From an uncultured Lachnospiraceae bacterium (GTDB lineage: Bacteria; Bacillota; Clostridia; Lachnospirales; Lachnospiraceae): a DNA stretch of 43,267 nucleotides. The stretch's first letter is position 1. Each line of letters opens with the position of its first letter. The translations under genes were made by a program, and so were the position numbers. The stretch covers positions 1-43,267 of the forward strand of contig CAMHCL010000001.1 of assembly GCA_946183625.1 (NCBI GenBank), given 5' to 3'. Positions 2,370 to 41,381 of the stretch are shown piece after piece. The notes under the pieces are model-generated. The model saw only the letters and a list, made by a program, of their open reading frames with translations, made no database searches and was not told the origin of the DNA.

Positions 2370-3974
2370 CTATTCTTCTGTACTATCCTTTGATTCTTCA
2401 CTTGCAGATTCCTCAGCATCCTGAGCATCCTTAACATCCTGCTTCTCTATAGCAAATAATGAACCTGATGTTATTGTATCCGGATATAGAATTACAAGAT
2501 CACCCTGCTTAAGGTCTCCACTAACGATTTCTGTATAATAGTCACCAACCTCACCTGTTTCTACTTCAACTTCCTCAGACTGATACATACCATTTGCAAC
2601 TTCTTTTGCAATATATACTTTTGAAGTCTCATCAGAATCAGTAATGATAGCTGTATATGGAACACTGAAAAGTGAGCTCTCTGCACCCATAGCAATCTTA
2701 GTCTTAACAGTCATACCAAGAAGAAGTCCATCACCGCTTGTTACCTTTATAACTGCTGAATAACCTGATGACTTCTGAGTTGCTCCCTGCATAAGAGGAT
2801 TAGTTGATGCGTCCTCTGATGAAGCCACGAAGTTTACAACCTTATCAACTACACCCTCTGCAGCTATATCCTGAAGAGAATCATTTGATATGGTTACTTC
2901 CTGACCTTCCTTAACTTTAAATATATCTCTTTCTTTTATCTCAACTTTAATCTGGAGGTTTTCATTATCTTCAATCTGAAGAATAGTTCCCTGGCATACC
3001 TGTCCCTCTGTTCCACTAACAGAAGTTACGATACCAGATACATCTGATTTAATTACTGAATTTTCTTTCTGCTCATATAATTCAGCAAGCTGAATAGTGA
3101 GCTCAGATACACTGGATACAGTGATAGATGTCATATCAAGAGTATCCTGAGCACTCTGAATAGCTTCACCACTTGCTTCTACTGTCTTATTGTAAGCCTT
3201 TACTGCTGCATCATATGCAGCCTTCTTCAGCTCAACACTTTCATCAGCTGCTACGGCTGTTGCATAGGCTGTTTCATAAGCTTTCTTAAGATCCTTGAGT
3301 GCTGCCTCTGCAACTGCATCACCAGGAGTTGCCTTTTCATAAGCTGTCTCATATGCAGTCTGTGCAGCAGTAGCTGCAGCATAAGCAGGTTCAACAGCTT
3401 CCACTGCACTCTCATATTCTTTTCTTGCTTCATCAAGTGCTTCAGCTGCAGAACTAATTTCAACATTTGAACTCTTACGAGCATTCTCAAGACCATGACG
3501 TGATGTCTCAAGCTGCTTAGCCTGAGCTCTCTCTTCGTCAGAAGCCTTACTCTCGAGATTAGTTATCTGTTTATCTATATCATCAGTTTCGATGGTACAT
3601 ACAACCTGACCCTTCTTAACCTTATCACCTACTGATACCTTGATCTCATCAATAGGATACTGAAGTCTGGTTGATATGCACTGTACATTCTGACTCTCAA
3701 CAGTACCCTTTGTACTAATATAAGAAGTCATATCATGCATTCCATACTCCTGAACAACAGTCTTGTTATCCATAGCACTCTTTGCCTTATTCATAAAACT
3801 TTTGAATAAAACAACTGCTCCAATGATAAATACAACTGCAACGGCAGCTATTATAATTATCCATTTCTTAGCGCCGCCCTTCTTCTTCGCCTTTTTCTTA
3901 TCAAATGCTGCTGAATTCTGCTGATTAGGATTCTGTTGCATTGGACTTTGTTGCATTGTACTCTGCTCTTCCAT
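2370..3974 (-). CDS. Efflux periplasmic adaptor / membrane fusion protein (HlyD/YknX-like)
   Basis: N-terminal TM helix, lipoyl-like VSVGDKVKKGQ, long coiled coil, C-terminal EIVSGDLKQGD; first gene of the ABC operon. Confidence 0.88.
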   Translation of the reverse strand: MEEQSTMQQSPMQQNPNQQNSAAFDKKKAKKKGGAKKWIIIIAAVAVVFIIGAVVLFKSFMNKAKSAMDNKTVVQEYGMHDMTSYISTKGTVESQNVQCISTRLQYPIDEIKVSVGDKVKKGQVVCTIETDDIDKQITNLESKASDEERAQAKQLETSRHGLENARKSSNVEISSAAEALDEARKEYESAVEAVEPAYAAATAAQTAYETAYEKATPGDAVAEAALKDLKKAYETAYATAVAADESVELKKAAYDAAVKAYNKTVEASGEAIQSAQDTLDMTSITVSSVSELTIQLAELYEQKENSVIKSDVSGIVTSVSGTEGQVCQGTILQIEDNENLQIKVEIKERDIFKVKEGQEVTISNDSLQDIAAEGVVDKVVNFVASSEDASTNPLMQGATQKSSGYSAVIKVTSGDGLLLGMTVKTKIAMGAESSLFSVPYTAIITDSDETSKVYIAKEVANGMYQSEEVEVETGEVGDYYTEIVSGDLKQGDLVILYPDTITSGSLFAIEKQDVKDAQDAEESASEESKDSTEE

Positions 3975-4173
3975 CTTAACCTCCGAAAATGTTTAATTTG
4001 TTTATTCCCTCAACCCTCTGACTATACCATAAAGACTGGGGCGAGGCAAGCTACCACACCCTAGCAATCCATGGTTTTACACTGTCAAAAAATCAACAAT
4101 ATAGATATTATAGCAGACATAGTAACAATTTTTTCTTAAATAAATCTTAAGATAGGATAATTAGTTTATTAAC

Positions 4174-4227
4174 TTCTATGGGATGGCGTTATTCTGTGGG
4201 ATGGCGTTATTCTGTGGGATGGCGTGC
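4174..4227. repeat. 18-bp tandem repeat x3 (TTCTRTGGGATGGCGTTA)
   Basis: Copies start at 4174, 4192 and 4210; the third runs into the 73-bp array. Confidence 0.9.
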
Positions 4228-4626
4228 GGGTTGAGGCAAATTCCTCTTGCTATCCGCACGCGAAATTCCTTGAATCCTTTGATTTTGTCGTGGCACGTGC
4301 GGTTTTGATTAATTTCCGGTTGCTTTCCGCACACTTAATCCCGAAAAAGCCTTTATTCTGTTGTATCGCGTGCGGGTTGAGATAGTTTCCTCTTGCTTCC
4401 CGCACACTTAATCCCGAAAAAGCCTTTATTCTATGAAATAGCGTGCGGATTGAGATAGTTTCCTCTTGCTTCCCGCACACTTAATCCCGGAAAAGCCTTT
4501 ATTCTGTTGGGGCGCGTGCGGGTTGAGATAGTTTCCTCTTGCTAACCGCACACTTAATCCCGAAAAAGCCTTTATTCTGTTGGGGCGCGTGCGGATTGAG
4601 TTATAAAAGTCTTGTCACCCGCACGC
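4222..4626. repeat. 73-bp tandem repeat array (about 5.5 units), each unit containing a GCGTGCGG-N24-CCGCAC(A/G)C inverted repeat
   Basis: Units start at 4222, 4295, 4368, 4441, 4514 and 4587 (exact period 73); central units near-identical, outer units diverged. Confidence 0.93.
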
Positions 4627-4663
4627 AGTCCAAAAAAATCACATAACCTTATAAACCCTAAAC

Positions 4664-4692
4664 TTGCCAATACTCTTTTTTTGTGATACTAT
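4664..4692 (+). promoter_or_regulatory. Putative sigma-A promoter for scfAB
   Basis: TTGCCA-N17-TACTAT with extended -10 (TGA TACTAT). Confidence 0.6.
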
Positions 4693-4737
4693 CTTTCATA
4701 GGTTTTAATCCTAATTATTATTTAAGAGGTGAATATC

Positions 4738-4875
4738 ATGGAGAGAATTAAGACACTTGAGACAAAAGATCTCTGTGAAAGCGCAAAGACAGGCGGATGC
4801 GGCGAGTGCCAGACATCATGTCAGAGTGCTTGTAAGACAAGCTGTGGCGTAGCTAATCAGCAGTGTGAAAAATAA
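4738..4875 (+). CDS. scfA: SCIFF (six-cysteine) ranthipeptide precursor
   Basis: MERIKTLETKDLCESAKTGGCGECQTSCQSACKTSCGVANQQCEK (45 aa) with the hallmark GGCGECQTSCQSACKTSC; GAGGTG RBS; directly upstream of the radical SAM maturase. Confidence 0.97.
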   Translation: MERIKTLETKDLCESAKTGGCGECQTSCQSACKTSCGVANQQCEK

Positions 4876-4880
4876 CAAGA

Positions 4881-4906
4881 GTGCCGCCGAAACAGGCGGC
4901 ATTTTT
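4881..4906 (+). terminator. Intrinsic terminator-like hairpin between scfA and scfB
   Basis: GTGCCGCC-gaaaca-GGCGGCAT followed by a T run. Confidence 0.75.
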
Positions 4907-4936
4907 GTTGAAGAAAACCCTAAGTGAGGAACCCAA

Positions 4937-6466
4937 ATGGTACATCAATACAAACTTAATGGCTACAACATAGTTCTCGATACATGCTCCGGTTCGGTGC
5001 ATAATGTGGACGATGTAGCTTACGATATAATTGAAATGTTTCCTACAAACAGCGAAGATGAAATCGTTGCTGAGATAATGAAGAGATACGGCGACCGTCC
5101 AGACGTGACCGAAGAAGATATCCGTCTATGTATAGATGATGTCCGCACTCTCAAGGAAAACCATAAACTCTATACCGAGGATACATACGCTCCTCTCGCA
5201 GGCGAGTTCAAGAGACGCAGTGGCGATGTCATAAAAGCTCTTTGTCTTCATGTATCACACACTTGCAATCTTAACTGTGAGTACTGCTTTGCAAGCCAGG
5301 GCAGATATCACGGCGACAGAGCGCTCATGAGCTTTGAAGTTGGAAAGGCTGCTATCGATTTTCTGATCGCTCATTCTGGAACAAGGCACAACCTCGAGGT
5401 GGACTTCTTCGGCGGAGAGCCTCTTATGAACTGGGATGTGTGCAAGCAGATCGTCGAGTACGCTCGTTCAATCGAGAAGGAAGCAGGCAAGAATTTCCGC
5501 TTCACTCTCACCACTAACGGAGTTCTTATCGATGATGATGTCATCGATTTCTGTAATAAAGAAATGTCAAATGTAGTGCTTAGCCTTGATGGTCGTAAAG
5601 AGGTTCATGACAGGACCCGTAAGGATTTTGCTGGCAACGGAAGCTATGACAAGATAATCCCTAAATTCCAGGAATTAGTAAAACGTCGTGGTGATAAGAG
5701 CTACTACATAAGAGGAACTTATACACATTTAAATACTGATTTTACAAATGATATCTTTGCAATGGCTGATCTAGGATTTGATGAGCTATCTATGGAGCCT
5801 GTTGTATGCAGTCCTGATGACCCACTTGCCCTTACAGCCGAGGACCTTCCAGTTCTAAAGGAGCAGTATGAAATACTTGCTAAAGATATGCTTCAGAGAG
5901 ACAGAGAAGGAAGAAGTATTACTTTCTATCATTATATGATCGACCTTAAGTCCGGTCCTTGTATCTACAAGAGAATTTCCGGATGCGGTTCAGGAACAGA
6001 ATATATGGCCGTTACACCTTGGGGCGACCTTTATCCATGCCATCAGTTCGTTGGCGAGGAGAAGTACAAGCTTGGCGATCTGTGGAACGGCGTTACAAAC
6101 ACCGAAGCACAGGAAGAATTCAGATTCTGCAATGCCTATGCCCGTCCAGACTGCAATGACTGCTGGGCTAAGCTCTACTGCTCAGGCGGATGTGCCGCAA
6201 ACGCATATCATGCCACAGGCGATGTTAAGGGCATTTATGAATATGGCTGTGAGCTTTTCAGAAAGCGTATGGAATGTGCCATTATGATCCAGGTTGCACA
6301 TGATGCAGAAGGAATCGTACCTAAGAAGGCCAGTTCGACAGACAGTCAGGCGACCGATGCCAATATTAACGCCGACTCCGATTCTAAAGCCAGCGTTGAT
6401 TGCAGCGATGATACAGATTGCAATAACTGTGCGTCAAATGACACAGAAGACCTCAGACGTTGTTAG
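4937..6466 (+). CDS. scfB: Thioether cross-link-forming SCIFF radical SAM/SPASM maturase
   Basis: CxxxCxxC (CNLNCEYC), FFGGEP, SPASM cysteines (GCGSG, YPCH, CNDCWAKLYCSGGC), N-terminal RRE-like region; adjacent to scfA. Confidence 0.96.
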   Translation: MVHQYKLNGYNIVLDTCSGSVHNVDDVAYDIIEMFPTNSEDEIVAEIMKRYGDRPDVTEEDIRLCIDDVRTLKENHKLYTEDTYAPLAGEFKRRSGDVIKALCLHVSHTCNLNCEYCFASQGRYHGDRALMSFEVGKAAIDFLIAHSGTRHNLEVDFFGGEPLMNWDVCKQIVEYARSIEKEAGKNFRFTLTTNGVLIDDDVIDFCNKEMSNVVLSLDGRKEVHDRTRKDFAGNGSYDKIIPKFQELVKRRGDKSYYIRGTYTHLNTDFTNDIFAMADLGFDELSMEPVVCSPDDPLALTAEDLPVLKEQYEILAKDMLQRDREGRSITFYHYMIDLKSGPCIYKRISGCGSGTEYMAVTPWGDLYPCHQFVGEEKYKLGDLWNGVTNTEAQEEFRFCNAYARPDCNDCWAKLYCSGGCAANAYHATGDVKGIYEYGCELFRKRMECAIMIQVAHDAEGIVPKKASSTDSQATDANINADSDSKASVDCSDDTDCNNCASNDTEDLRRC

Positions 6467-6529
6467 TACAAAATAAAACCCCATTAATAATTAATGGCAT
6501 ATCATAGACCTTACAGTTTAGGAGGCACT

Positions 6530-8203
6530 ATGAAAAATACGAATATAACAACCCCTATAAATGATTTCACATCGGACTACTCCACTTCAGGCGTAGTCCG
6601 TCTTCATATGCCAGGGCACAAAGGTTCTGGGGATTGGGATCAGGGAGTAATTCCAAACAGCGATGCAAATTTTGGACAGGGGTTGATTTCCAACGCCCTT
6701 GATATCACTGAGATTTCCGGTGCTGATTCTCTTTATGAGGCCGACGGGATAATTCTGGAAAGCGAGAATAATGCCTCCGAACTATTCGGTACAAGACATA
6801 CATTTTACTCATGTGGCGGCTCAAGCCAATCTATAAAGTCTATGTGCTATCTAGCACTAAAGCATGCCGCTTCAACACCTAATAACATTGGTATAAAGCA
6901 TACACCGACAATCCTTGCGGGCAGAAATGCGCACAGGGCTTTTCTTGATGCATGCATGCTTCTTAAGTTCGACGTTGAATGGCTGTATTCCGAGGACGAG
7001 ACTTCACTTTGCAGATGCCTGATCACTCCGGAAGGATTAGATGAGCGTATACAAGAATTCAAGGTGGAGCATTACGGTGCCCTTCCATCAGCTATCTACG
7101 TGACAAGTCCTGATTATCTTGGAAATGTACTGGATATCCGTGGGCTCGCTGAAACGACCCACAAATACGGCATTCTTCTATTGTGTGATAACGCCCATGG
7201 TTCGTATCTCAGATTCATATCAACTACGGACACATCAACATGTGAAAACACAACCACATCAGAATGTGGAAACAGCGCGGATATAAATGACCTCCATCCA
7301 ATCACTCTCGGTGCAGATATTGTATGCGATTCTGCACACAAGACTCTTCCGGTTCTTACTGGAGGCGCATATCTCCACGTAAGCAATTCGGCTCCGAAGG
7401 GAATAGAAAAAGAAGCAAGACAGGCTATGGTCATGTTCGGTTCCACAAGCCCATCATATCTGATACTTAATTCACTGGATAAAGCGAATAAAATCCTTAG
7501 TGAAGATGGTTATAAAATGTACCAGGACTGTCACAAGAAAATCTCTGAATTAAAAGAAAAGCTGACCGAAGCCGGTATCCTTCTGATGGGCGACGAACCG
7601 CTGAAGATTACTATCGATGCACAGCGTTCTTTCGGACTTAGTGGAACAACACTTGCTGATATCCTTCGTAAGGGATTATCGTCATCCGATATTGCAGAGA
7701 AAGCCAATTCATCCAGCATCGCAGAAAAGGGCAATTCATCCAGCATCGCAGAAAAGAGCAATTCATCCAGCATCACAGATGAAGTCCGAATCGAATGTGA
7801 ATACGCTGACCGCGACTACCTGGTAACCATGTGGTCTCCTTGCAATCCAGATTCTGATTATGAAGATTTCTATAAGGCGATTATCAGAATCATGGGTCAT
7901 AGAAATAACATTTCACACGAGGCCAGCGAAATCATACACGGAAAAACCAAAAACAAAACGGAAGATGCTGTTTGCACCTTCCGCTATAATGCTGTAGCTA
8001 AATACCAGCCATATGAAACTTTATTCATGGATACTGAAACTGTGAAGGTTTCTAAATCCATCTGTGGCCGAATCGCAGCTGATACATCTGTGCACTGCCC
8101 TCCGGCTATTCTTCCTATAGTTCCCGGCGAAATAATTGACGAGAACACGTTAGCCATTCTCAAATACAACAACATAAATCAAATCACTGTCATTAGATTA
8201 TAA
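6530..8203 (+). CDS. PLP-dependent Orn/Lys/Arg decarboxylase family protein
   Basis: LHMPGHKG, DNAHG, PLP lysine SAHKTLP, STSPSY, PPAILPIVPGE; start at the ATG after AGGAGG. Confidence 0.88.
   Translation: MKNTNITTPINDFTSDYSTSGVVRLHMPGHKGSGDWDQGVIPNSDANFGQGLISNALDITEISGADSLYEADGIILESENNASELFGTRHTFYSCGGSSQSIKSMCYLALKHAASTPNNIGIKHTPTILAGRNAHRAFLDACMLLKFDVEWLYSEDETSLCRCLITPEGLDERIQEFKVEHYGALPSAIYVTSPDYLGNVLDIRGLAETTHKYGILLLCDNAHGSYLRFISTTDTSTCENTTTSECGNSADINDLHPITLGADIVCDSAHKTLPVLTGGAYLHVSNSAPKGIEKEARQAMVMFGSTSPSYLILNSLDKANKILSEDGYKMYQDCHKKISELKEKLTEAGILLMGDEPLKITIDAQRSFGLSGTTLADILRKGLSSSDIAEKANSSSIAEKGNSSSIAEKSNSSSITDEVRIECEYADRDYLVTMWSPCNPDSDYEDFYKAIIRIMGHRNNISHEASEIIHGKTKNKTEDAVCTFRYNAVAKYQPYETLFMDTETVKVSKSICGRIAADTSVHCPPAILPIVPGEIIDENTLAILKYNNINQITVIRL
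7694..7774 (+). repeat. In-frame 27-bp tandem repeat x3 encoding AEK(A/G/S)NSSSI
   Basis: Copies at 7694, 7721 and 7748. Confidence 0.9.
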
Positions 8204-8249
8204 TCTTCAACCGATTCCTCCATCATAAAAATATCTCATTGATCTCACA

Positions 8250-9233
8250 TTACAACCATCTGCCGGTGATACGAGCATGACAGTAGCCCCTTACAGGTTC
8301 TATGCCTCTGCCCTTCATCTTAGCCATGCAGAGTGTCTCGTGCGAATGGATCATCGGAATCAGTTCCTCATCAAAATCCAACTTCTTAGGAATAGCGCCC
8401 ATTATAAGGTGCACATCCAATTCTCTTACATAGAAATCAAGTTTCAGTGGACCCGGTTTTTTATAGAATTCCACAATCTGGCTGGCAACCAGAGGACACA
8501 TGATATTCTTCTGAATACCATCAGTTTTTATGAACTTGGCCCAGCCACGTTCAACGCCCTCTACGCAGTTCATCCAGATCATTGCCTTCGCGCCATTTTC
8601 AAATACAAAATAGAATCTAGCCCATCCAACCTTGGCATTCTTAACAGGTCTTTCTGACGCAATCCTTCTGGTTGGGAGCAGGCTGAATCTGGATGCCGCC
8701 TTTCCATACCATTCTCTACCAACCCAGGACGTAGCCTTAATCTCCGTACTAACATTTCCCAGCGTTATAGTTCCGCCGGTATATGTTCCCGGATATGTAA
8801 AATTGTACATAGCCGAATCATTTAATGATGCTTCTCCGGAATCAGTCAGACACAGAGGTAATCCCTGCGGTCTGAGGTTGATATCTAGAGAAACTCCGTC
8901 CATACTAGCATGGATCTGAATTCTATCTATGTTGCCTGACACTTCACTGTCAGGTGTCCTTGCAAGAAATGCATTAGCGGACACCATGACTTCTTTTTCA
9001 TCATAATAATGGACTTCGTCTATGAATTCCTTCTTAGTCTGATCCGCAAGCACAAAATACGTACCTATCTTGATCTCCTTACCTGGCAGTTCAACTGCCA
9101 TGATATGGTACAGATAGTCCATCTTGTGTCCTTCCAGATCGAAAGTACCACTGGCATAAAATGAATTAAATATATAATTACGTTTAAAGATTAAATCCAT
9201 CGTCGGATTAACCTTAATAATTCCATCACGCAA
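8250..9233 (-). CDS. Hypothetical protein, possibly AttH/lipocalin-like double beta-barrel
   Basis: Beta-rich; YNFTYP...GGTITLG...SWVGREW resembles AttH/CrtC-like motifs; TTG start. Confidence 0.45.
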   Translation of the reverse strand: MRDGIIKVNPTMDLIFKRNYIFNSFYASGTFDLEGHKMDYLYHIMAVELPGKEIKIGTYFVLADQTKKEFIDEVHYYDEKEVMVSANAFLARTPDSEVSGNIDRIQIHASMDGVSLDINLRPQGLPLCLTDSGEASLNDSAMYNFTYPGTYTGGTITLGNVSTEIKATSWVGREWYGKAASRFSLLPTRRIASERPVKNAKVGWARFYFVFENGAKAMIWMNCVEGVERGWAKFIKTDGIQKNIMCPLVASQIVEFYKKPGPLKLDFYVRELDVHLIMGAIPKKLDFDEELIPMIHSHETLCMAKMKGRGIEPVRGYCHARITGRWL

Positions 9234-9259
9234 TTCTATAACCCCACGAAAATGTCACT

Positions 9260-11698
9260 TTATAAATCTACTTCTACTTTCTTAAGCTTCCAGATGTCCT
9301 TTACATACTCTTCGATAGTTCTATCTGATGAGAACTTGCCGGAGCATGCTGTGTTCATCATAGCCATACGAGCCCAGCCTTCCTGGTCACGATATGCAGC
9401 ATCAACTCTCTGCTGAGCCTCTGCATAAGAATCGAAATCCTTAAGGATGAAGTAAACATCTTCCTTGGTAAGTGAATCATACAGATCTCTGAAGAGCTCT
9501 GTATCTTCGTTAAATGTACCGTTGATGAGCTGTGTAAGAACTCTTCTTACATTCTGATTAGAATTGAAGATGTCCATAGGATTATATCCACCCTCACGCT
9601 CATACTTCATAACTTCATCAGCTGAAAGGCCAAAGATAAATGCATTTTCTATACCAACTTCTTCAACGATCTCTACGTTAGCACCATCCATAGTACCAAG
9701 AGTAGGAGCACCATTGATCATGAACTTCATGTTACCTGTACCTGAAGCCTCGCGGGAAGCTGTAGATATCTGTTCAGAAACATCCGCAGCAGCAAAGATG
9801 ATCTCACCATTTGATACACGGTAATCCTCGATGAAGACAACCTTGATCTTGTTATTGATAGCTGGATCATTATTAACTACGTCTGCAACTGAATTGATGA
9901 GCTTGATTGTAAGCTTAGCTCTCTTATATCCTGCAGCTGCCTTTGCACCGAAGATAAATGTTCTTGGGTACATATCGAAATCAGGATTCTCTTTTAATTC
10001 ATTGTAGAGATGCATTACATGGAGTATGTTGAGAAGCTGTCTCTTGTACTCATGAAGTCTCTTAACCTGAACATCAAAGATTGAGTTAGGATCAACGTCA
10101 ATGCCGTTGTTCTCCTTGATATATTTAGCAAGTCTCAGCTTGTTCTGATATTTGATATTCATGAACTCCTGCTGATACTTCTTATCATCAACATATGTCT
10201 TGAGCTTAGCCATCTGAGAGAAGTCTGTGATCCAGTCTTCTCCGATCTTCTCATTAAGCCATTTAGCAAGAAGTGGATTAGCATGAGCAAGGAATCTTCT
10301 CTGTGTAACACCATTTGTCTTGTTATTAAATGACTTAGGATTCATTTCATAGAAGTCCTTAAGCTCTCTCTTCTTCAGGATCTCAGTATGGAGTCTTGCA
10401 ACACCATTTACAGAGAATGAACCTGCGATAGCAAGGTGAGCCATCTTAACCTGTCCATCATAAAGGATAGCCATATTTCTAACCTTATTAGGATCGTTTG
10501 GATACTTCTCCTGAATCTTGATCACATATCTACGGTTGATCTCTTCTACGATCTGATATACACGTGGAAGAAGTCTGGAGAAGAGCTCGATAGGCCATTT
10601 CTCAAGAGCCTCAGACATGATTGTGTGATTTGTATAAGCACAGCACTTAGTTGTGATTGCCCATGCCTCATCCCACTCAAGACCTTCTACATCCATGAGG
10701 ATACGCATAAGCTCTGCTACTGTAAGTGTAGGATGTGTATCATTCATCTGGAATACAACCTTCTTAGGCAGATCCTGAATCTTCTTGTTGTTCTCCTTGA
10801 ACTTAAGGATAGCTCTCTGAAGTGATGCAGATACGAAGAAGTACTGCTGCTTCAGACGAAGCTCCTTACCTGAATAATGATTATCATTTGGATAAAGTAC
10901 TTCGCAGATATTCTTAGCCAGGTTCTGCTGCTCAACAGCCTTCTCATATTCACCCTTATCAAATGAATTGAGGTTGAACTCCTGAATAGCCTCAGCATCC
11001 CAGATACGAAGTGTATTAACTACGTTGTTGCCATAACCAACGATTGGCATATCATATGGTACGGCACGTACAGACTGATAACCCTCCTGTATGAAGTGAT
11101 TACGTCCATCTCTGTTCTCAACTCTTACATATCCACCGAACTTTACTTCAACGGCATACTCTGCACGCTTTACTTCAAATGGGAATCCATTTCTTAACCA
11201 GTCATCTGGCTCCTCAAGCTGATAGCCATCAACAATAGCCTGCTTGAACATACCATACTTATATCTGATACCGCATCCATATGCAGGGTATCCAAGAGTT
11301 GAAAGAGAATCCAGGAAACATGCAGCGAGACGGCCCAGACCACCATTACCAAGTGCAGGGTCTCTCTCCTGATCCTCTATAAAGTTTATATCAAGTCCCA
11401 TCTCTTCAAGAGCCTTCTTGACTTCTGGATAATATCCTAAGTTGAGAAGGTTATTTCCGAGCGCTCTACCCATCAGGAATTCCATTGAGAGGTAGTAAAC
11501 TTTCTTAACATTCTGATCCTTGTAAACCTTATGTGTTGCAATCCATCTGTCAATAATGTCGTCCTTACATGCATAGCTGACAGCCTGGAAAATCTCCTGT
11601 GGATTAGCCTCCTCTAAAGGCTTTCTGTACAGGGTCTTAATATTCGCAGCAACCTGTTTTTTGAAACTCTTCTTGTCAAATTTTGCAATTTTCTTCAT
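9260..11698 (-). CDS. glgP: Glycogen/starch phosphorylase
   Basis: LGNGGLGRLAACF, YLSMEFL, QVKRLHEYKRQ, PLP site EASGTGNMK. Confidence 0.97.
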   Translation of the reverse strand: MKKIAKFDKKSFKKQVAANIKTLYRKPLEEANPQEIFQAVSYACKDDIIDRWIATHKVYKDQNVKKVYYLSMEFLMGRALGNNLLNLGYYPEVKKALEEMGLDINFIEDQERDPALGNGGLGRLAACFLDSLSTLGYPAYGCGIRYKYGMFKQAIVDGYQLEEPDDWLRNGFPFEVKRAEYAVEVKFGGYVRVENRDGRNHFIQEGYQSVRAVPYDMPIVGYGNNVVNTLRIWDAEAIQEFNLNSFDKGEYEKAVEQQNLAKNICEVLYPNDNHYSGKELRLKQQYFFVSASLQRAILKFKENNKKIQDLPKKVVFQMNDTHPTLTVAELMRILMDVEGLEWDEAWAITTKCCAYTNHTIMSEALEKWPIELFSRLLPRVYQIVEEINRRYVIKIQEKYPNDPNKVRNMAILYDGQVKMAHLAIAGSFSVNGVARLHTEILKKRELKDFYEMNPKSFNNKTNGVTQRRFLAHANPLLAKWLNEKIGEDWITDFSQMAKLKTYVDDKKYQQEFMNIKYQNKLRLAKYIKENNGIDVDPNSIFDVQVKRLHEYKRQLLNILHVMHLYNELKENPDFDMYPRTFIFGAKAAAGYKRAKLTIKLINSVADVVNNDPAINNKIKVVFIEDYRVSNGEIIFAAADVSEQISTASREASGTGNMKFMINGAPTLGTMDGANVEIVEEVGIENAFIFGLSADEVMKYEREGGYNPMDIFNSNQNVRRVLTQLINGTFNEDTELFRDLYDSLTKEDVYFILKDFDSYAEAQQRVDAAYRDQEGWARMAMMNTACSGKFSSDRTIEEYVKDIWKLKKVEVDL

Positions 11699-31038: not shown

Positions 31039-32694
31039 TTATTTTATCAGGTCTGCTTTCGTGATCGTCATCAGATCATCCGTATTATCGAGGCCTGCAG
31101 TTCCGAGTTCCATAAGGCGGTTTGCCTGGTTGGAGATAACTTTCTCGAAGTAGTTACGTACGGAACGTGCGTTACCGAAGTTCTCTTCTTCTTCGGCTCT
31201 TATCTTCTGGATGGCATCGAGGATCACTTCATCTGTTCCTTCTTCAAGAACGAAGTCCTGGCCGGATACGTATTCCTTAAATATCTGAAGCAGCTCATCA
31301 TCTGAATAGTCGTTGAACTGTATGTATCTGTTGAAACGCGAACGCAGTCCAGGGTTGGAATTGATGAAATCCTTCATCTCTTCTGTATAACCCGCAACGA
31401 TAACTATGAGATTATCTCTGTTATCCTCCATCAATTTAAGAAGTGTGTTGATAGCTTCCTGACCGAAATCGCCTTCATTTTCTGACACAAGGGAATATGC
31501 CTCATCTATAAAGAGGATTCCGCCCATCGCTTGCTTTACAACTTCTGAAACCTTCTCTGCTGTCTGGCCCATGTAGCCTGCAACCATTCCGGTACGGTCT
31601 GTCTCTATCATATGACCCTTCTCAAGGATTCCCAAAGTCTTATATATCTTACCTATGGCTCTTGCTATAGTTGTCTTACCTGTACCAGGATTCCCCGTGA
31701 ATACCAGATGTCTTGAAACCACCGGACTCTTAAGCCCTTTCCTACGACGCATTTCATTTATTAGCATCATATTGACCATGTCGTGGATCTCTTTCTTTAC
31801 ATTTCCGAGTCCCACAAGGCCATCAACGTCATTAAGGATTTCATGAATGGTATCCATATCTATAGGATTACTTTCTTCAGCTTTAGCTGTAGAAGTTGTC
31901 CTGTGAGGTGAACTGAAGGAAGCAAGCTTAAGATCTCCTCTGTAGCTCTCAAGCTGAGTCTCTACAACATTCTTATCATTGAATTCCTTAGCACTATTAT
32001 CTGATTCCTTGAACTCCTCAAGAGGATGTTTGGTAACATCTATACCTTCATCCTGTCTTGGCTGAACCTTCATTTTCAGGCCACCATTACTCATGGCCTT
32101 CTTTTCTTCCGGCGCATCTACGTACTTCACCTCAAGAGGTTTTCTCTGGGCAAGTCTGCTCTTAGTGAAATTAACTGCCTCATCCAGCTGGGAACTCGAA
32201 AATCCATCCAGCTCTTCCATCCTGAAGATAAAATTCAGAATATTGTTGATGAAATAGCTCTGTATCATAACGCAGAATTTAAGAGTAGCACCTGTACAGT
32301 TCAGGATGATATTACCAAATTCCTTCATAGCCCCATAAAGCACACGGGTATTCTCAAGAAAACAGTTCGGGGAAGGATTTTCACTCTTCTCCAGCTCCGC
32401 AACTGTCTTGATGGAAATCGGAATTTTCTTCATATAACTTTCATCAGACAGATAGTCCAGTCCATAGCTCTTAGACAGAATGCTGTAATCAAAATCCACG
32501 CCAAATGTCCTGCTGATCACATCGATTTCCTTACTATCCACATAGCCATCGCTGACCGCGATCATAAAGGCCATTCGTATGGTATCATCACAGAACTGAT
32601 AGAAAAGCTCATTTCCTGACGCTCCAGGAATACGCTTCTCATAGTTCTCACATATTACTTTACATTTATTAAGTACAACACCAATCGGTTCCAC
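31039..32694 (-). CDS. CbbX/SpoVK-family AAA+ ATPase with TerB-like N-terminus
   Basis: GNPGTGKTT, YMGQTA pore loop, FIDEAY, NPGLRSRF, FGNARSVRN; N-terminal IAVSDGYVDSKEIDVI. Confidence 0.85.
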   Translation of the reverse strand: MEPIGVVLNKCKVICENYEKRIPGASGNELFYQFCDDTIRMAFMIAVSDGYVDSKEIDVISRTFGVDFDYSILSKSYGLDYLSDESYMKKIPISIKTVAELEKSENPSPNCFLENTRVLYGAMKEFGNIILNCTGATLKFCVMIQSYFINNILNFIFRMEELDGFSSSQLDEAVNFTKSRLAQRKPLEVKYVDAPEEKKAMSNGGLKMKVQPRQDEGIDVTKHPLEEFKESDNSAKEFNDKNVVETQLESYRGDLKLASFSSPHRTTSTAKAEESNPIDMDTIHEILNDVDGLVGLGNVKKEIHDMVNMMLINEMRRRKGLKSPVVSRHLVFTGNPGTGKTTIARAIGKIYKTLGILEKGHMIETDRTGMVAGYMGQTAEKVSEVVKQAMGGILFIDEAYSLVSENEGDFGQEAINTLLKLMEDNRDNLIVIVAGYTEEMKDFINSNPGLRSRFNRYIQFNDYSDDELLQIFKEYVSGQDFVLEEGTDEVILDAIQKIRAEEEENFGNARSVRNYFEKVISNQANRLMELGTAGLDNTDDLMTITKADLIK

Positions 32695-39263: not shown

Positions 39264-41051
39264 TCAGGGGTTCATTACGAACCCCATAGTCACACCAGTT
39301 TCCTCCGGCTTCATATTGTCCGGCAAACAGAAATCCTCCGGCTCTAAGACAAAGTCATCCATAGCCTGCTCTTCGTCATTTCCAACCTGCTCACCGCCAT
39401 CACCAAACGCCCTGAGCGCATATGACAGAACCGCATTCTCCACCAGGTTTCTGCAGAACCGTCCGTTACCCATATTAGGATTGTCCAGCACCTGGTCGAA
39501 GATTCCACCAAGCTTTTCCTTTGCCTCATCCGATATAGAGAATCCTCTCTTCGTTGCCTCTAGCTCTGTGATCTGCACCAGCTCACCAGCAGAGTAATCG
39601 TCAAATGTAATGCTGAACGGCACTCTCGACCTAAGCCCAGGATTCTTGGAGAAAAACTCTTCCATCTTGTCCGGATAACCAGCAAATATCACCACTGTAT
39701 CATTTCGGTTATTCTCCATTTCCTGAACTATGGTATTTATTGCCTCTTCACCATAACCTCCTCTGCAATCCGAAAGCGAATAAGCTTCATCAACGAAAAG
39801 CAGACTCCCTTTAGCCTTCTCAAACACCCGCTTCACCATATCGGCTGTGTGTCCCACATACTTCCCAACAAGGTCAGCCTCACCAACCTCTATAAGGTCG
39901 CCCTTCGGAAGTACATTTTCATCCTTCAGTATTCCCGCAAGGATCCTTGCCACAGTAGTTTTTGCCGTTCCCGGATTTCCCACAAACTCCATATTAAGTG
40001 CGATTGGAATTTCCTGTCCCTCCGGCATACTCTTCTTCAGCTTCGCCAGAGCCTTTATCTTCTCCACCTGCGTTTTCACAGCTTCCAGACCAATCAGCTC
40101 ATCCAGCATTTCTGAATAATTCTTCTGTTCCTCTTTAATCCTTGGCTTCCTATCAAACTCAGCCAGAGCCTGCTTTATTTCCTCAAAACACTTTCGACTC
40201 AGATTCCTGATACCCAGCAGCTCCTTGTCGGACATATCTCTTAGTTCCTCAACAGATTCAACCCCTGCTCTCTTCAGACAGTTATACGACCTCACACTAA
40301 GGAGCAGCTCATCTATATCCGTATACGAATAATCCATTTCTTCAGCGAATCCACCATCGTCAAACTCCAAATCATTATCCTCAGTCTCGTCATCTCCGTA
40401 CACATCAAGAGACATCAGATTTTCCATGCAGTCCTTTATCAGGGCCGTCGGAAGCACATTTTCACCATCAACAAAAGTCTCCTCCAATTCGGTAACAACC
40501 GTTCCCGGAAAAATCATTGATACCAAAGTCTTCATCTTGAGAGTCATATCTTCCTTAAGACTTATCAACATCCTTCCGGAGCTCTTATCCTCTGAACCCT
40601 TTCCTTCCATTACAATTCTGATTATCCCTTCAGAGCTTCTTATCTGGCCCATCAGGTCCGAATAGTTCTCTAGATTATCAGCCTTTTCAGTCGGCTCAAT
40701 CCCCTTATCAAATGTCCTGACCGCGTATACCTTTCTGTCTTCAGCAAATATATCTGATAACTCCTCTGTATCAACTTCCGAAGCAGCTGCAGTACCGCTG
40801 AAAATCCATTCTATATCCCTTTCATCCACCTTGGTATCTGCACCGAAGAATACAAACTCCTTAGTCTTCTCGTCAGAACCAGTTTCCATCTGCCAGCCGA
40901 TGAATTCATTCTCACCAAGCAATTCACTTGCAGTGAAAAACCTCTTGCAGGAAGCACAAACACGTCTAAACACACCGTACACGGAATCGTTACCATTTGC
41001 AGTTAAACAAACAACATTAGTTGCAACCTTATTAAACTTATAGTTTGTCAT
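39264..41051 (-). CDS. RNA polymerase alpha-CTD-like domain fused to a CbbX/SpoVK-type AAA+ ATPase
   Basis: IDELLLSVRSYNCLKRAGV...IRNLSRKCFEEI; GNPGTAKTT, YVGHTA, FVDEAY, NPGLRSR, GNGRFCRN; start after AAGGAG. Confidence 0.85.
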   Translation of the reverse strand: MTNYKFNKVATNVVCLTANGNDSVYGVFRRVCASCKRFFTASELLGENEFIGWQMETGSDEKTKEFVFFGADTKVDERDIEWIFSGTAAASEVDTEELSDIFAEDRKVYAVRTFDKGIEPTEKADNLENYSDLMGQIRSSEGIIRIVMEGKGSEDKSSGRMLISLKEDMTLKMKTLVSMIFPGTVVTELEETFVDGENVLPTALIKDCMENLMSLDVYGDDETEDNDLEFDDGGFAEEMDYSYTDIDELLLSVRSYNCLKRAGVESVEELRDMSDKELLGIRNLSRKCFEEIKQALAEFDRKPRIKEEQKNYSEMLDELIGLEAVKTQVEKIKALAKLKKSMPEGQEIPIALNMEFVGNPGTAKTTVARILAGILKDENVLPKGDLIEVGEADLVGKYVGHTADMVKRVFEKAKGSLLFVDEAYSLSDCRGGYGEEAINTIVQEMENNRNDTVVIFAGYPDKMEEFFSKNPGLRSRVPFSITFDDYSAGELVQITELEATKRGFSISDEAKEKLGGIFDQVLDNPNMGNGRFCRNLVENAVLSYALRAFGDGGEQVGNDEEQAMDDFVLEPEDFCLPDNMKPEETGVTMGFVMNP

Positions 41052-41099
41052 ACCTTTTCTCCTTTTCAAAATACACATTCGTTACTCATCTTCAACAGT

Positions 41100-41341
41100 C
41101 TACACAAGCTATTCCGTTGGCAGGCTCATATCATCGCCATGCTTCCCCCGGCCGGCCGCCGTGCATCTGAGGATTCAGTTGTCAAGGTACATGCTCTGCT
41201 TAAAGTTTTGGCTTTAAGCAAAACAAAAAAGCAGCTGTGAAACATCTTTCAAATGGGCATAGTATCCCCATCAAAAGACTTCAATACCATACAAACCATA
41301 TATTTCACATCTGCCTTAACGACAAACTATTAAGTTGTATT
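41100..41341 (-). promoter_or_regulatory. Structured leader/attenuator-like intergenic region
   Basis: GCAGATGTGAAA...TTTCACAGCTGC plus T tract, a second hairpin at 41197-41220, boxA-like GTACCTTGACAACTGAAT and a GC-rich segment. Confidence 0.45.
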
Positions 41342-41381
41342 TAGAATTTAACACCATGTGAGAGGAAAGTCAATAGAAGGA

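What the first reader, a model, noticed from the sequence alone, without database searches (positions are those of the whole stretch)
39264..41051. RNA polymerase alpha-CTD-like domain fused to a CbbX/SpoVK AAA+ ATPase, downstream of rtcB-prfH
Seen: an unknown N-terminal domain of about 215 aa, an acidic linker, a clear alpha-CTD-like segment (about 40160-40325) and a full AAA+ module with a variant Walker A (GNPGTAKT), YVG pore loop and Arg finger. Residues equivalent to E. coli alpha R265, N268, N294 and K298 appear retained; G296 and S299 are replaced by S and C. Established: alpha-CTD binds UP-element DNA, activators and NusA, and CbbX-type ATPases are hexameric remodellers. Inference: an ATP-driven remodeller or decoy that uses an alpha-CTD mimic to target promoter DNA or alpha-binding factors (host or phage), possibly forming a stress or anti-phage module with RNA repair and ribosome rescue genes.
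Basis: partly seen in the sequence, partly recalled or inferred. Interest (0 to 1): 0.75.

Follow-up and report, generated by a model that had tools for sequence, protein, structure and literature searches.

The report
Polymerase-tail unfoldase with two-part RNA leader
A solitary gene scattered through gut and rumen Clostridia joins a copy of RNA polymerase's DNA-gripping tail to a ring ATPase and sits behind its own conserved, uncatalogued two-hairpin RNA leader; it likely strips proteins off transcription complexes and is predicted to pass them to the ClpP protease, while its place next to rtcB-prfH here is incidental.

Summary
The fusion is real (39264-41051, minus strand): an N-terminal domain, an acidic linker, an RpoA alpha-CTD (Pfam E 1e-21) and a SpoVK/CbbX/EccA-clade AAA+ module with all catalytic motifs. 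It defines one Clostridia clade (119 of 120 top homologues share the architecture). The rtcB-prfH link fails: 0 of 80 related loci carry either gene within up to 10 kb. The scan met this family before on other DNA (e1-4005187, which noted the IGF tail; I confirmed it in 118 of 120 versus 10 of 797 background). New here: (1) the N-terminal domain folds like the VirB4/EccE3 domain (Z 10.9). (2) The gene has a conserved leader: sigma-A promoter, long hairpin with U-run, boxA-like site, covarying kink-turn hairpin. One or both parts occur in 66 of 68 loci, and Rfam has no match. (3) A ClpP paralogue paired with a soluble VirD4-like ATPase is enriched in carrier genomes (14/50 versus 5/147) and sometimes adjacent or under the same leader. 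Best reading, untested: an attenuator-gated, ClpP-docking unfoldase aimed by its alpha-CTD at promoter DNA or alpha-binding proteins (about 40%). New variant of a known kind.

The parts
41345..41373 (-). sigma-70/sigma-A-type promoter-like site (TTGACT-17-TAAATT with TG extension)
   Evidence: 9 of 12 consensus matches, alone near chance level; a TTGACA-N15-18-TAnnnT site lies just upstream of hairpin 1 in 29 of the 51 loci where a closing hairpin was found
41220..41320 (-). leader element 1: 60-95 nt long hairpin followed by a U-run (terminator/attenuator-like), with a conserved inner motif
   Evidence: covariation 18 of 23 pairs, 0/500 shuffles; model R2 hit E 2e-6; no Rfam family
41173..41190 (-). 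boxA-like motif
   Evidence: the same motif lies 300-560 nt after 16S rRNA in 7 of 15 16S copies in 3 genomes; resembles the B. subtilis boxA that binds NusB (PMC13753749)
41086..41172 (-). leader element 2: long hairpin with internal loops ending in a kink-turn (a K-loop at about 41124-41137 in this copy)
   Evidence: covariation 21 of 25 pairs, 0/500 shuffles; standard k-turn pattern in 41 of 43 sequences; model R1 hit 41086-41197
39264..41051 (-). 595-aa NTD / alpha-CTD / AAA+ / MGF-tail gene
40392..41030 (-). N-terminal domain (res 8-220), tandem alpha/beta domain resembling the VirB4 N-terminal / EccE3 domain
   Evidence: AF2 pLDDT 90.9; VIA-align best hit TrwK/VirB4 7o42 Z 10.9, rmsd 3.9, 196 aligned; EccE3 6lar_G Z 7.9; no Pfam match
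40326..40391 (-). acidic, disordered linker (res 221-242)
   Evidence: pLDDT under 50 at 222-242; 15% mean family identity
40158..40340 (-). RNA polymerase alpha C-terminal domain copy (res 238-298)
   Evidence: PF03118 E 1.2e-21; 54% identical to the host's own RpoA CTD; residue mapping
39318..40118 (-). SpoVK/CbbX/EccA-clade AAA+ module (res 312-578); Walker A at 39957-39980
39279..39287 (-). C-terminal MGF tripeptide (IGF in 86% of the family), candidate ClpP-docking tail
   Evidence: G590 and F591 invariant; tail motif in 118/120, 103/109 and 76/79 proteins versus 10/797 neighbouring ORFs

Best explanation
This gene encodes a SpoVK/CbbX-clade AAA+ ATPase fused to an RpoA alpha-CTD and a VirB4/EccE-like domain; it likely works as a hexameric unfoldase that uses the alpha-CTD to reach promoter DNA or alpha-binding transcription proteins, is predicted to dock on ClpP through its C-terminal (I/M)GF tail, and is likely kept off by a promoter-proximal terminator hairpin until read-through occurs. 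Shown: the domains, the intact catalytic and DNA-contact residues, the tail, the two conserved covarying leader hairpins, the single-gene scattered distribution, and enrichment of a ClpP paralogue / soluble VirD4-like pair in carrier genomes. Inferred: hexamer formation and substrate threading (from the clade), ClpP docking (motif and co-occurrence only), the substrate class (alpha-CTD surface only), termination at hairpin 1, and NusB/S10 loading at boxA plus protein binding at the k-turn to carry read-through transcripts into the gene.
For: All clade and catalytic motifs are nearly invariant; the best structural match is CbbX. Characterised clade members are narrow-target chaperones whose variable N-terminal domains likely recruit substrate (PMC11513918). 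The alpha-CTD is conserved at 58% mean identity versus 33% for the NTD, with the DNA-contact positions at 92-98%; 2 proteins carry two alpha-CTDs. The IGF-type tail is in 118/120 versus 10/797 background; (L/I/V)GF/L is the ClpP-docking motif of Clp ATPases (PMC8745299). A C-terminal docking tail is how PAN/Cdc48 reach the proteasome (recalled). A ClpP paralogue with an intact Ser-His-Asp set occurs in 14/50 carrier genomes versus 5/147 non-carriers (11/47 versus 4/146 without profile donors) and in the window's own genome. In L009 and L027 it lies within about 6 kb of the gene; in L012 the gene is third in a leader-headed run with a ClpX-like ATPase. Leader.
Against: No activity, binding or expression data exist. 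36 of 50 carrier genomes show no ClpP paralogue (many are incomplete), and the carrier and control sets differ in lineage and habitat, so the enrichment is overstated. This copy reads MGF, outside the strict (L/I/V)GF motif, and has S and C at the G296/S299 positions. The alpha-CTD is absent in 4 of 79 locus proteins and 10 of 140 representatives, and the NTD is absent in 5 of 79, so neither is required by the core. Walker A has Ala for the last Gly (invariant); that such variants are active in MCM and RavA is recalled, not tested. The simple terminator scan found no terminator in the window, and boxA lies downstream of hairpin 1, so it cannot be what overrides it. The boxA pattern matched 0 of 6 rRNA copies in G085.
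Confidence: 0.4

Rival explanations
1. Decoy or sensor against invaders: the alpha-CTD is bait for phage or mobile-element proteins that bind, modify or cleave RpoA, and the ATPase destroys them through ClpP or triggers abortive proteolysis. The leader would switch on when an invader defeats termination.
For: Patchy single-gene spread (3/150 family genomes, 1/24 same-genus genomes). The boxA/k-turn element has relatives at the head of mobile-element operons. An alpha-CTD-like domain is part of the BREX protein PglW (PMC12839542). Phage Rac targets RpoA (PMC7552054, listing only); T4 Alt/ModA modify R265 (recalled).
Against: Neighbours are mostly housekeeping or unrelated genes, not defence islands. 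There is no full-length homologue in phage records and only weak PADLOC hits. Conservation of R265 fits DNA binding equally well.
Confidence: 0.2
2. Non-proteolytic remodeller in the manner of CbbX or SpoVK: it loosens or reactivates a DNA-bound target, and the IGF tail is an assembly or localisation motif rather than a ClpP plug.
For: The characterised clade members are chaperones, not protease partners (PMC11513918). Most carrier genomes show no ClpP paralogue.
Against: The invariant terminal GF is shared with sister tandem-AAA proteins but absent from the host's four other CbbX-like proteins, one of them cut short in extraction. ClpP paralogue and ClpX-like genes recur nearby.
Confidence: 0.2
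3. Subunit of a larger secretion-derived cytoplasmic machine: the VirB4/EccE-like NTD docks on the soluble VirD4-like ATPase that travels with the ClpP paralogue, and the alpha-CTD is only an optional DNA tether.
For: NTD fold. EccE3-like domains are known fused to VirB4-like ATPases (PMC11090510). The VirD4-like gene is within 1.5 kb of the ClpP paralogue in 17 of 21 loci. The same double leader heads a ClpP/VirD4-like operon in G097. NTD-AAA forms without an alpha-CTD exist.
Against: The pair was found in only 14 of 50 carrier genomes and is physically near the gene in 2 of 80 loci; alpha-CTD-AAA forms without the NTD exist.
Confidence: 0.15
4. Shared RNA-repair and ribosome-rescue module with rtcB-prfH.
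For: Adjacent and co-oriented in this window.
Against: 0 of 80 loci; PrfH-like genes in 7 of 50 carrier genomes, never adjacent; own promoter and leader.
Confidence: 0.02

Closest known systems
SpoVK / CbbX / EccA higher-order clade of classical AAA+ ATPases (PMC11513918; PDB 3SYK, 3ZUH, 9LUR)
   Same: One AAA+ module with the GY sensor-1, Asn before the Arg finger, sensor-2 Arg and Tyr pore loop; variable N-terminal recruiting domains; 40% identity to CbbX.
   Different: Below the SpoVK, CbbX and EccA equivalog cut-offs. It carries an alpha-CTD, a VirB4/EccE-like NTD and an IGF-type tail, has no Rubisco, sporulation or T7SS context, and has its own RNA leader. The text and supplement terms I searched do not mention this architecture (figure labels not seen).
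ClpXP / ClpCP
   Same: An (I/L/V)GF-type tripeptide on an AAA+ protein, with ClpP genes nearby in some loci.
   Different: The motif is a C-terminal tail on a classical-clade ATPase, not a loop of an Hsp100/Clp ATPase; docking is untested.
RpoA alpha-CTD, and the alpha-CTD-like domain of BREX PglW (PMC12839542)
   Same: PF03118 domain with the DNA-contact face conserved; reused outside RNA polymerase.
   Different: Here it is tethered to an unfoldase rather than to polymerase or a kinase.
EccE3 / VirB4 N-terminal domain (EccE3-HerA of CoCoNuT extensions, PMC11090510)
   Same: Same predicted fold placed N-terminal to a ring ATPase.
   Different: No transmembrane part, and the ATPase is AAA+, not FtsK/HerA.
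rrn / lambda nut boxA antitermination sites, and k-turn RNAs (drum, HOLDH, RAGATH-18, Actinomyces-1; PMC8191799)
   Same: boxA-like motif like that of clostridial rRNA spacers; standard k-turn geometry.
   Different: No Rfam 15 family matches either hairpin; the order promoter, terminator-like hairpin, boxA, k-turn hairpin before a protein gene was not found in my searches.

Membership tests
SpoVK/CbbX/EccA clade | GY signature in sensor-1 | tested here: met
   G458 Y459 invariant
SpoVK/CbbX/EccA clade | Asn four residues before the first Arg finger | tested here: met
   N470 100%, R474 90%, R476 100%
SpoVK/CbbX/EccA clade | second Arg finger (sensor-2) | tested here: met
   GNGR, R531 99%
SpoVK/CbbX/EccA clade | bihelical hairpin before Walker A | tested here: met
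   helices 312-318 and 323-341 in the model; Foldseek top hits are CbbX
SpoVK/CbbX/EccA clade | ATPase activity and hexamer | not testable with these tools
   variant Walker A (GTAKT); needs an assay
SpoVK (TIGR02881) | score above equivalog cut-off; short NTD | tested here: not met
   241.7 vs 422.95 bits; 310-residue N-terminal region
CbbX (TIGR02880) | score above cut-off; Rubisco context | tested here: not met
   209.9 vs 459.25 bits; no Rubisco among 118 nearest neighbours
EccA (TIGR03922) | score above cut-off; TPR N-terminal domain | tested here: not met
   174.5 vs 466.65 bits; the NTD is alpha/beta
RNA_pol_A_CTD (PF03118) | score above gathering threshold | tested here: met
   76.6 vs 23.8 bits
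RNA_pol_A_CTD (PF03118) | DNA-contact residues (R265, N268, N294, G296, K298, S299; list recalled) | tested here: met
   4 of 6 in this copy; family 98, 94, 98, 84, 92 and 50%
RNA_pol_A_CTD (PF03118) | binds UP-element DNA or activators | not testable with these tools
   needs EMSA or pull-down
Clp ATPases (ClpX/ClpA/ClpC) | Hsp100/Clp-clade ATPase with an internal IGF loop | tested here: not met
   classical-clade module; the tripeptide is C-terminal
ClpP partner (works like ClpX) | physical docking on ClpP | not testable with these tools
EccE3 / VirB4 N-terminal domain | structural match over most of the domain | tested here: met
   Z 10.9, rmsd 3.9, 196 of 213 aligned; next unrelated hit Z 6.8; Foldseek TMq 0.49
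EccE3 / VirB4 N-terminal domain | sequence-level homology | tested here: inconclusive
   no Pfam match in 60 members; Atlas lead DUF8128, score 0.89, 15% of members
standard kink-turn | C-helix, 3-nt bulge, tandem G:A / A:G | tested here: met
   41 of 43 sequences; definition from PMC8191799
boxA | same motif in rRNA operons of the group | tested here: inconclusive
   7 of 15 16S copies: 4/4, 3/5, 0/6; NusB binding untested
any Rfam 15 family | gathering score | tested here: not met
   none for the leader in the window or 6 loci
RtcB-PrfH module | conserved linkage | tested here: not met
   0 of 80 loci

The most novel reading that the evidence does not exclude
A transcription-surveillance protease. 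A terminator-gated leader fires only when termination fails or polymerase is hijacked. It then makes a classical-clade AAA+ ring that has independently acquired a ClpP plug at its tail, uses a stolen RpoA alpha-CTD to find promoter-bound or alpha-binding proteins, and joins through a conjugation-derived domain a dispersed regulon of ClpP paralogue and soluble VirD4-like ATPase controlled by the same uncatalogued boxA/k-turn RNA.
Probability: 0.15. Interest if true: 0.9.

Novelty: new variant of a known kind. Interest (0 to 1): 0.66.

Why it matters
If the tail docks on ClpP, this would be a ClpP partner from outside the Hsp100/Clp clade that is aimed at transcription by a borrowed polymerase domain: a new route to regulated proteolysis in gut Clostridia. 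Independently of that, the two leader elements are well-supported structured RNAs absent from Rfam 15. One is nearly specific to this system. The other links a boxA-like site to a k-turn and recurs at the start of clostridial mobile-element operons, which gives a direct test of Nus-type antitermination outside rRNA operons in Firmicutes.

Tried and rejected
rtcB-prfH module: rejected. Conserved partner gene or defence island: none; recurring neighbour clusters reached at most 12 of 81 sources and the largest were generic. Phage-borne gene: the 11 viral-contig hits matched only residues 244-593, and the five I read were other AAA proteins without this architecture; no phage record covers 80% of the protein. 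ClpX-like companion as an obligate partner: only 4/50 versus 2/150. RNAalifold on the MAFFT alignment recovered only 5 pairs, so both structures were set by hand from pair counts and single folds. The k-turn hairpin alone folds no better than shuffles in the window (z 0.78); the whole 294-nt leader gives z -3.7. Expression: no RNA holder listed; three small-share runs gave only short contig pieces and no ends, so nothing follows. Complex prediction of the tail with ClpP was not available, so there is no verdict. Stand-alone NTDs: 20 of 140 representatives show only the NTD and may be fragments; I did not resolve this. Literature searches for the fusion, the tail, the ClpP/VirD4 pair and the leader found no description. 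The sequence files of PMC8040213 (files 7, 8) were not searched, so the leader may be among its candidate RNAs.

Full report
Observation. The gene is at 39264-41051 on the minus strand. Pfam finds RNA_pol_A_CTD at residues 238-298 (E 1.2e-21), AAA and AAA_lid_6. NCBIfam ranks SpoVK, CbbX and EccA first, all below their cut-offs. The host's real RpoA is on another contig and is 54% identical over the CTD. The upstream genes are rtcB and prfH.

Family. Of the 120 best homologues, 119 have NTD, alpha-CTD and AAA+ (one with two alpha-CTDs); the other is a triple-AAA protein. An NTD profile finds 367 proteins among 1.84 billion representatives. Among the 140 new representatives: 98 have the full architecture, 1 has two alpha-CTDs, 10 lack the alpha-CTD, and 31 are short (NTD with or without alpha-CTD, possibly fragments). 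Among 79 locus proteins (window included; L036 and L037 gave no called ORF): 66 full, 5 without the NTD, 4 without the alpha-CTD, 4 other AAA proteins. A quick tree of 95 AAA domains puts 76 family rows in one clade (SH-aLRT 95), beside IGF-tailed tandem-AAA proteins, with host families mixed (the careful search did not finish). The gene is rare: strong NTD hits in 3 of 150 same-family genomes and a full copy in 1 of 24 same-genus genomes. Named records are Lachnospiraceae, Oscillospiraceae and other Clostridia. Walker A GNPGTAKT, Walker B, Y398, GY, N470, R474/R476 and R531 are 90-100% conserved, meeting the clade features in PMC11513918 (section 7 read; supplement searched by terms). Mean pairwise identity is 70% in the AAA module, 58% in the alpha-CTD and 33% in the NTD.

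N-terminal domain. No Pfam family matches any of 60 members. The AF2 model is confident (pLDDT 90.9). Its best match among 48,161 chains is the N-terminal part of TrwK/VirB4 (Z 10.9, rmsd 3.9, 196 aligned), then ESX-3 chain 6lar_G (Z 7.9), which I take from recall to be EccE3. Foldseek gave no clear E-value, but VirB4 had the best TM-score shown (0.49). PMC11090510 (passages) describes EccE3-like domains fused to VirB4-like ATPases, so this domain class is known in front of ring ATPases.

Tail. G590-F591 are invariant, preceded by I in 86% and M in 8%; this copy has MGF. The motif ends 118/120, 103/109 and 76/79 proteins against 10 of 797 neighbouring ORFs. An earlier scan note (e1-4005187) named this tail as a ClpP-docking candidate; I reuse that reading after checking the counts. 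PMC8745299 (passages) gives (L/I/V)-G-(F/L) as the docking motif of Clp ATPases.

Neighbourhood. In 80 genome loci with up to 10 kb flanks, tblastn found no rtcB, prfH or tetR. Recurring neighbour clusters were generic or limited to close kin, and 118 nearest neighbours were a random mix. PrfH-like genes occur in 7 of 50 carrier genomes, the nearest about 17 kb from the gene. The downstream tetR has its own promoter-like site, so the gene looks monocistronic.

Leader. Upstream of the start lies a boxA-like motif followed by a long hairpin. On 43 sequences, 21 of 25 hand-set pairs show changes on both sides; no shuffle of 500 and no slid control reaches this (relatedness can inflate it, and the outer helices are loosely aligned, 54-73% paired). 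The tip is a standard k-turn in 41 of 43 (definition in PMC8191799, first part read). Further upstream lie a promoter-like site and a 60-95 nt hairpin ending in a U-run, with 18 of 23 pairs covarying, strongest in the basal stem (92% paired; inner helices 55-58%). Of 76 family loci, 68 have at least 300 nt upstream: model R1 hits 62, R2 hits 61, both 57, either 66, at E up to about 0.06 and including training sequences; held-out counts are 22/28 and 20/27, some being near-copies. The two without a direct hit (L012, L027) have a leader-like hit at the head of an adjoining operon. R1 hits 49 of 50 carrier genomes, mostly once. In 150 family genomes R2 hits the 3 carriers, one ClpP/VirD4-like operon (G097) and 2 weak sites. 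R1 hits 20 of 150, the weaker ones in front of excisionase-like, HTH and other mobile-element genes, often beside a divergent repressor (labels by inspection), and 9 of 28 viral pattern loci at E under 1e-4. Rfam has no match. The boxA pattern lies 300-560 nt after 16S in 7 of 15 copies (4/4, 3/5, 0/6), and PMC13753749 (passages) shows that a similar B. subtilis motif binds NusB.

Companion genes. The window's genome has a separate operon of ClpX-like ATPase, ClpP paralogue and VirD4-like protein, with no exact boxA match or R2 hit there. Such genes lie near the AAA gene in L009, L012, L027 and a second copy in G174 next to recombinase-like genes. A paralogue profile separates cleanly from housekeeping ClpP (over 230 versus under 200 bits): 14 of 50 carrier genomes versus 7 of 150 family genomes, 2 of those 7 being carriers; without profile donors 11/47 versus 4/146. 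The sets are not independent or matched, and 36 of 50 lack it. The ClpP/VirD4-like pair was noted earlier by the scan.

Mechanism. Shown: anatomy, conservation, leader structure, distribution. Inferred: a hexameric unfoldase with the alpha-CTD and NTD on the entry face and the tail on the exit face, as for PAN/Cdc48 tails (recalled), docking on ClpP and removing proteins at promoters or alpha-binding factors, with expression limited by hairpin 1 and read-through supported by boxA and the k-turn hairpin. I put this at 0.40; invader decoy 0.20; non-proteolytic remodeller 0.20; subunit of the ClpP/VirD4-like machine 0.15; rtcB-prfH module 0.02.

Novelty. It is a member of the SpoVK/CbbX/EccA clade but of none of its named families. 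Eight literature searches found no description of the fusion or the leader; figure labels of PMC11513918 and the sequence files of PMC8040213 were not seen. Other papers used: PMC12839542 (one passage) and PMC7552054 (listing only). Verdict: new variant of a known kind, interest 0.66.

Noticed in passing
L194 (G000:C56) 2421-8495, minus strand: Operon in the window's own genome: 159-aa unknown, ClpX-like AAA without IGF tail, 306-aa unknown, ClpP paralogue, VirD4/TraG-like ATPase, three unknowns. Parts recur in G174, G160, G164, G154.
   Followed up: partly
L158 (G097:C4) 6372-9936 and about 10600-11303: Same double leader heads HTH-XRE, 298-aa unknown, ClpP paralogue and VirD4-like gene; a second leader 4 kb on precedes a 205-aa unknown.
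   Followed up: partly
L088-L112, L122-L143, L196, L200: boxA-like plus k-turn hairpin relatives at the head of clostridial mobile-element operons (excisionase-like, HTH, Cys-rich, AAA genes), often right after a promoter shared with a divergent repressor; not in Rfam for the copies tested.
   Followed up: partly
L197 7022-8292; L198 3946-10695: boxA/k-turn leader heads a MoxR-like AAA and metallopeptidase-like operon, followed in L198 by the ClpP paralogue and VirD4-like gene.
   Followed up: no
L037, L040, L013 upstream of the gene: These copies carry a different conserved GC-rich element in place of the k-turn hairpin (L037 and L040 keep hairpin 1).
   Followed up: no
   Followed up: partly
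window 31039-32694 (-): Second CbbX/SpoVK-like ATPase (551 aa) with an unannotated N-terminal region, canonical Walker A and no IGF tail; three more CbbX-like genes elsewhere in the genome.
   Followed up: no
window 41199-41224 (-): An extra perfect hairpin between the U-run and boxA, seen only in this copy.
   Followed up: no
L012 9149-9841: Homologue of the 306-aa unknown with a DnaB N-terminal-domain match, between the ClpX-like gene and the AAA gene.
   Followed up: no
L199 2225-3667: A full double leader in G160 precedes an unrelated 404-aa secreted-looking protein, suggesting the leader can be left behind or reused.
   Followed up: no
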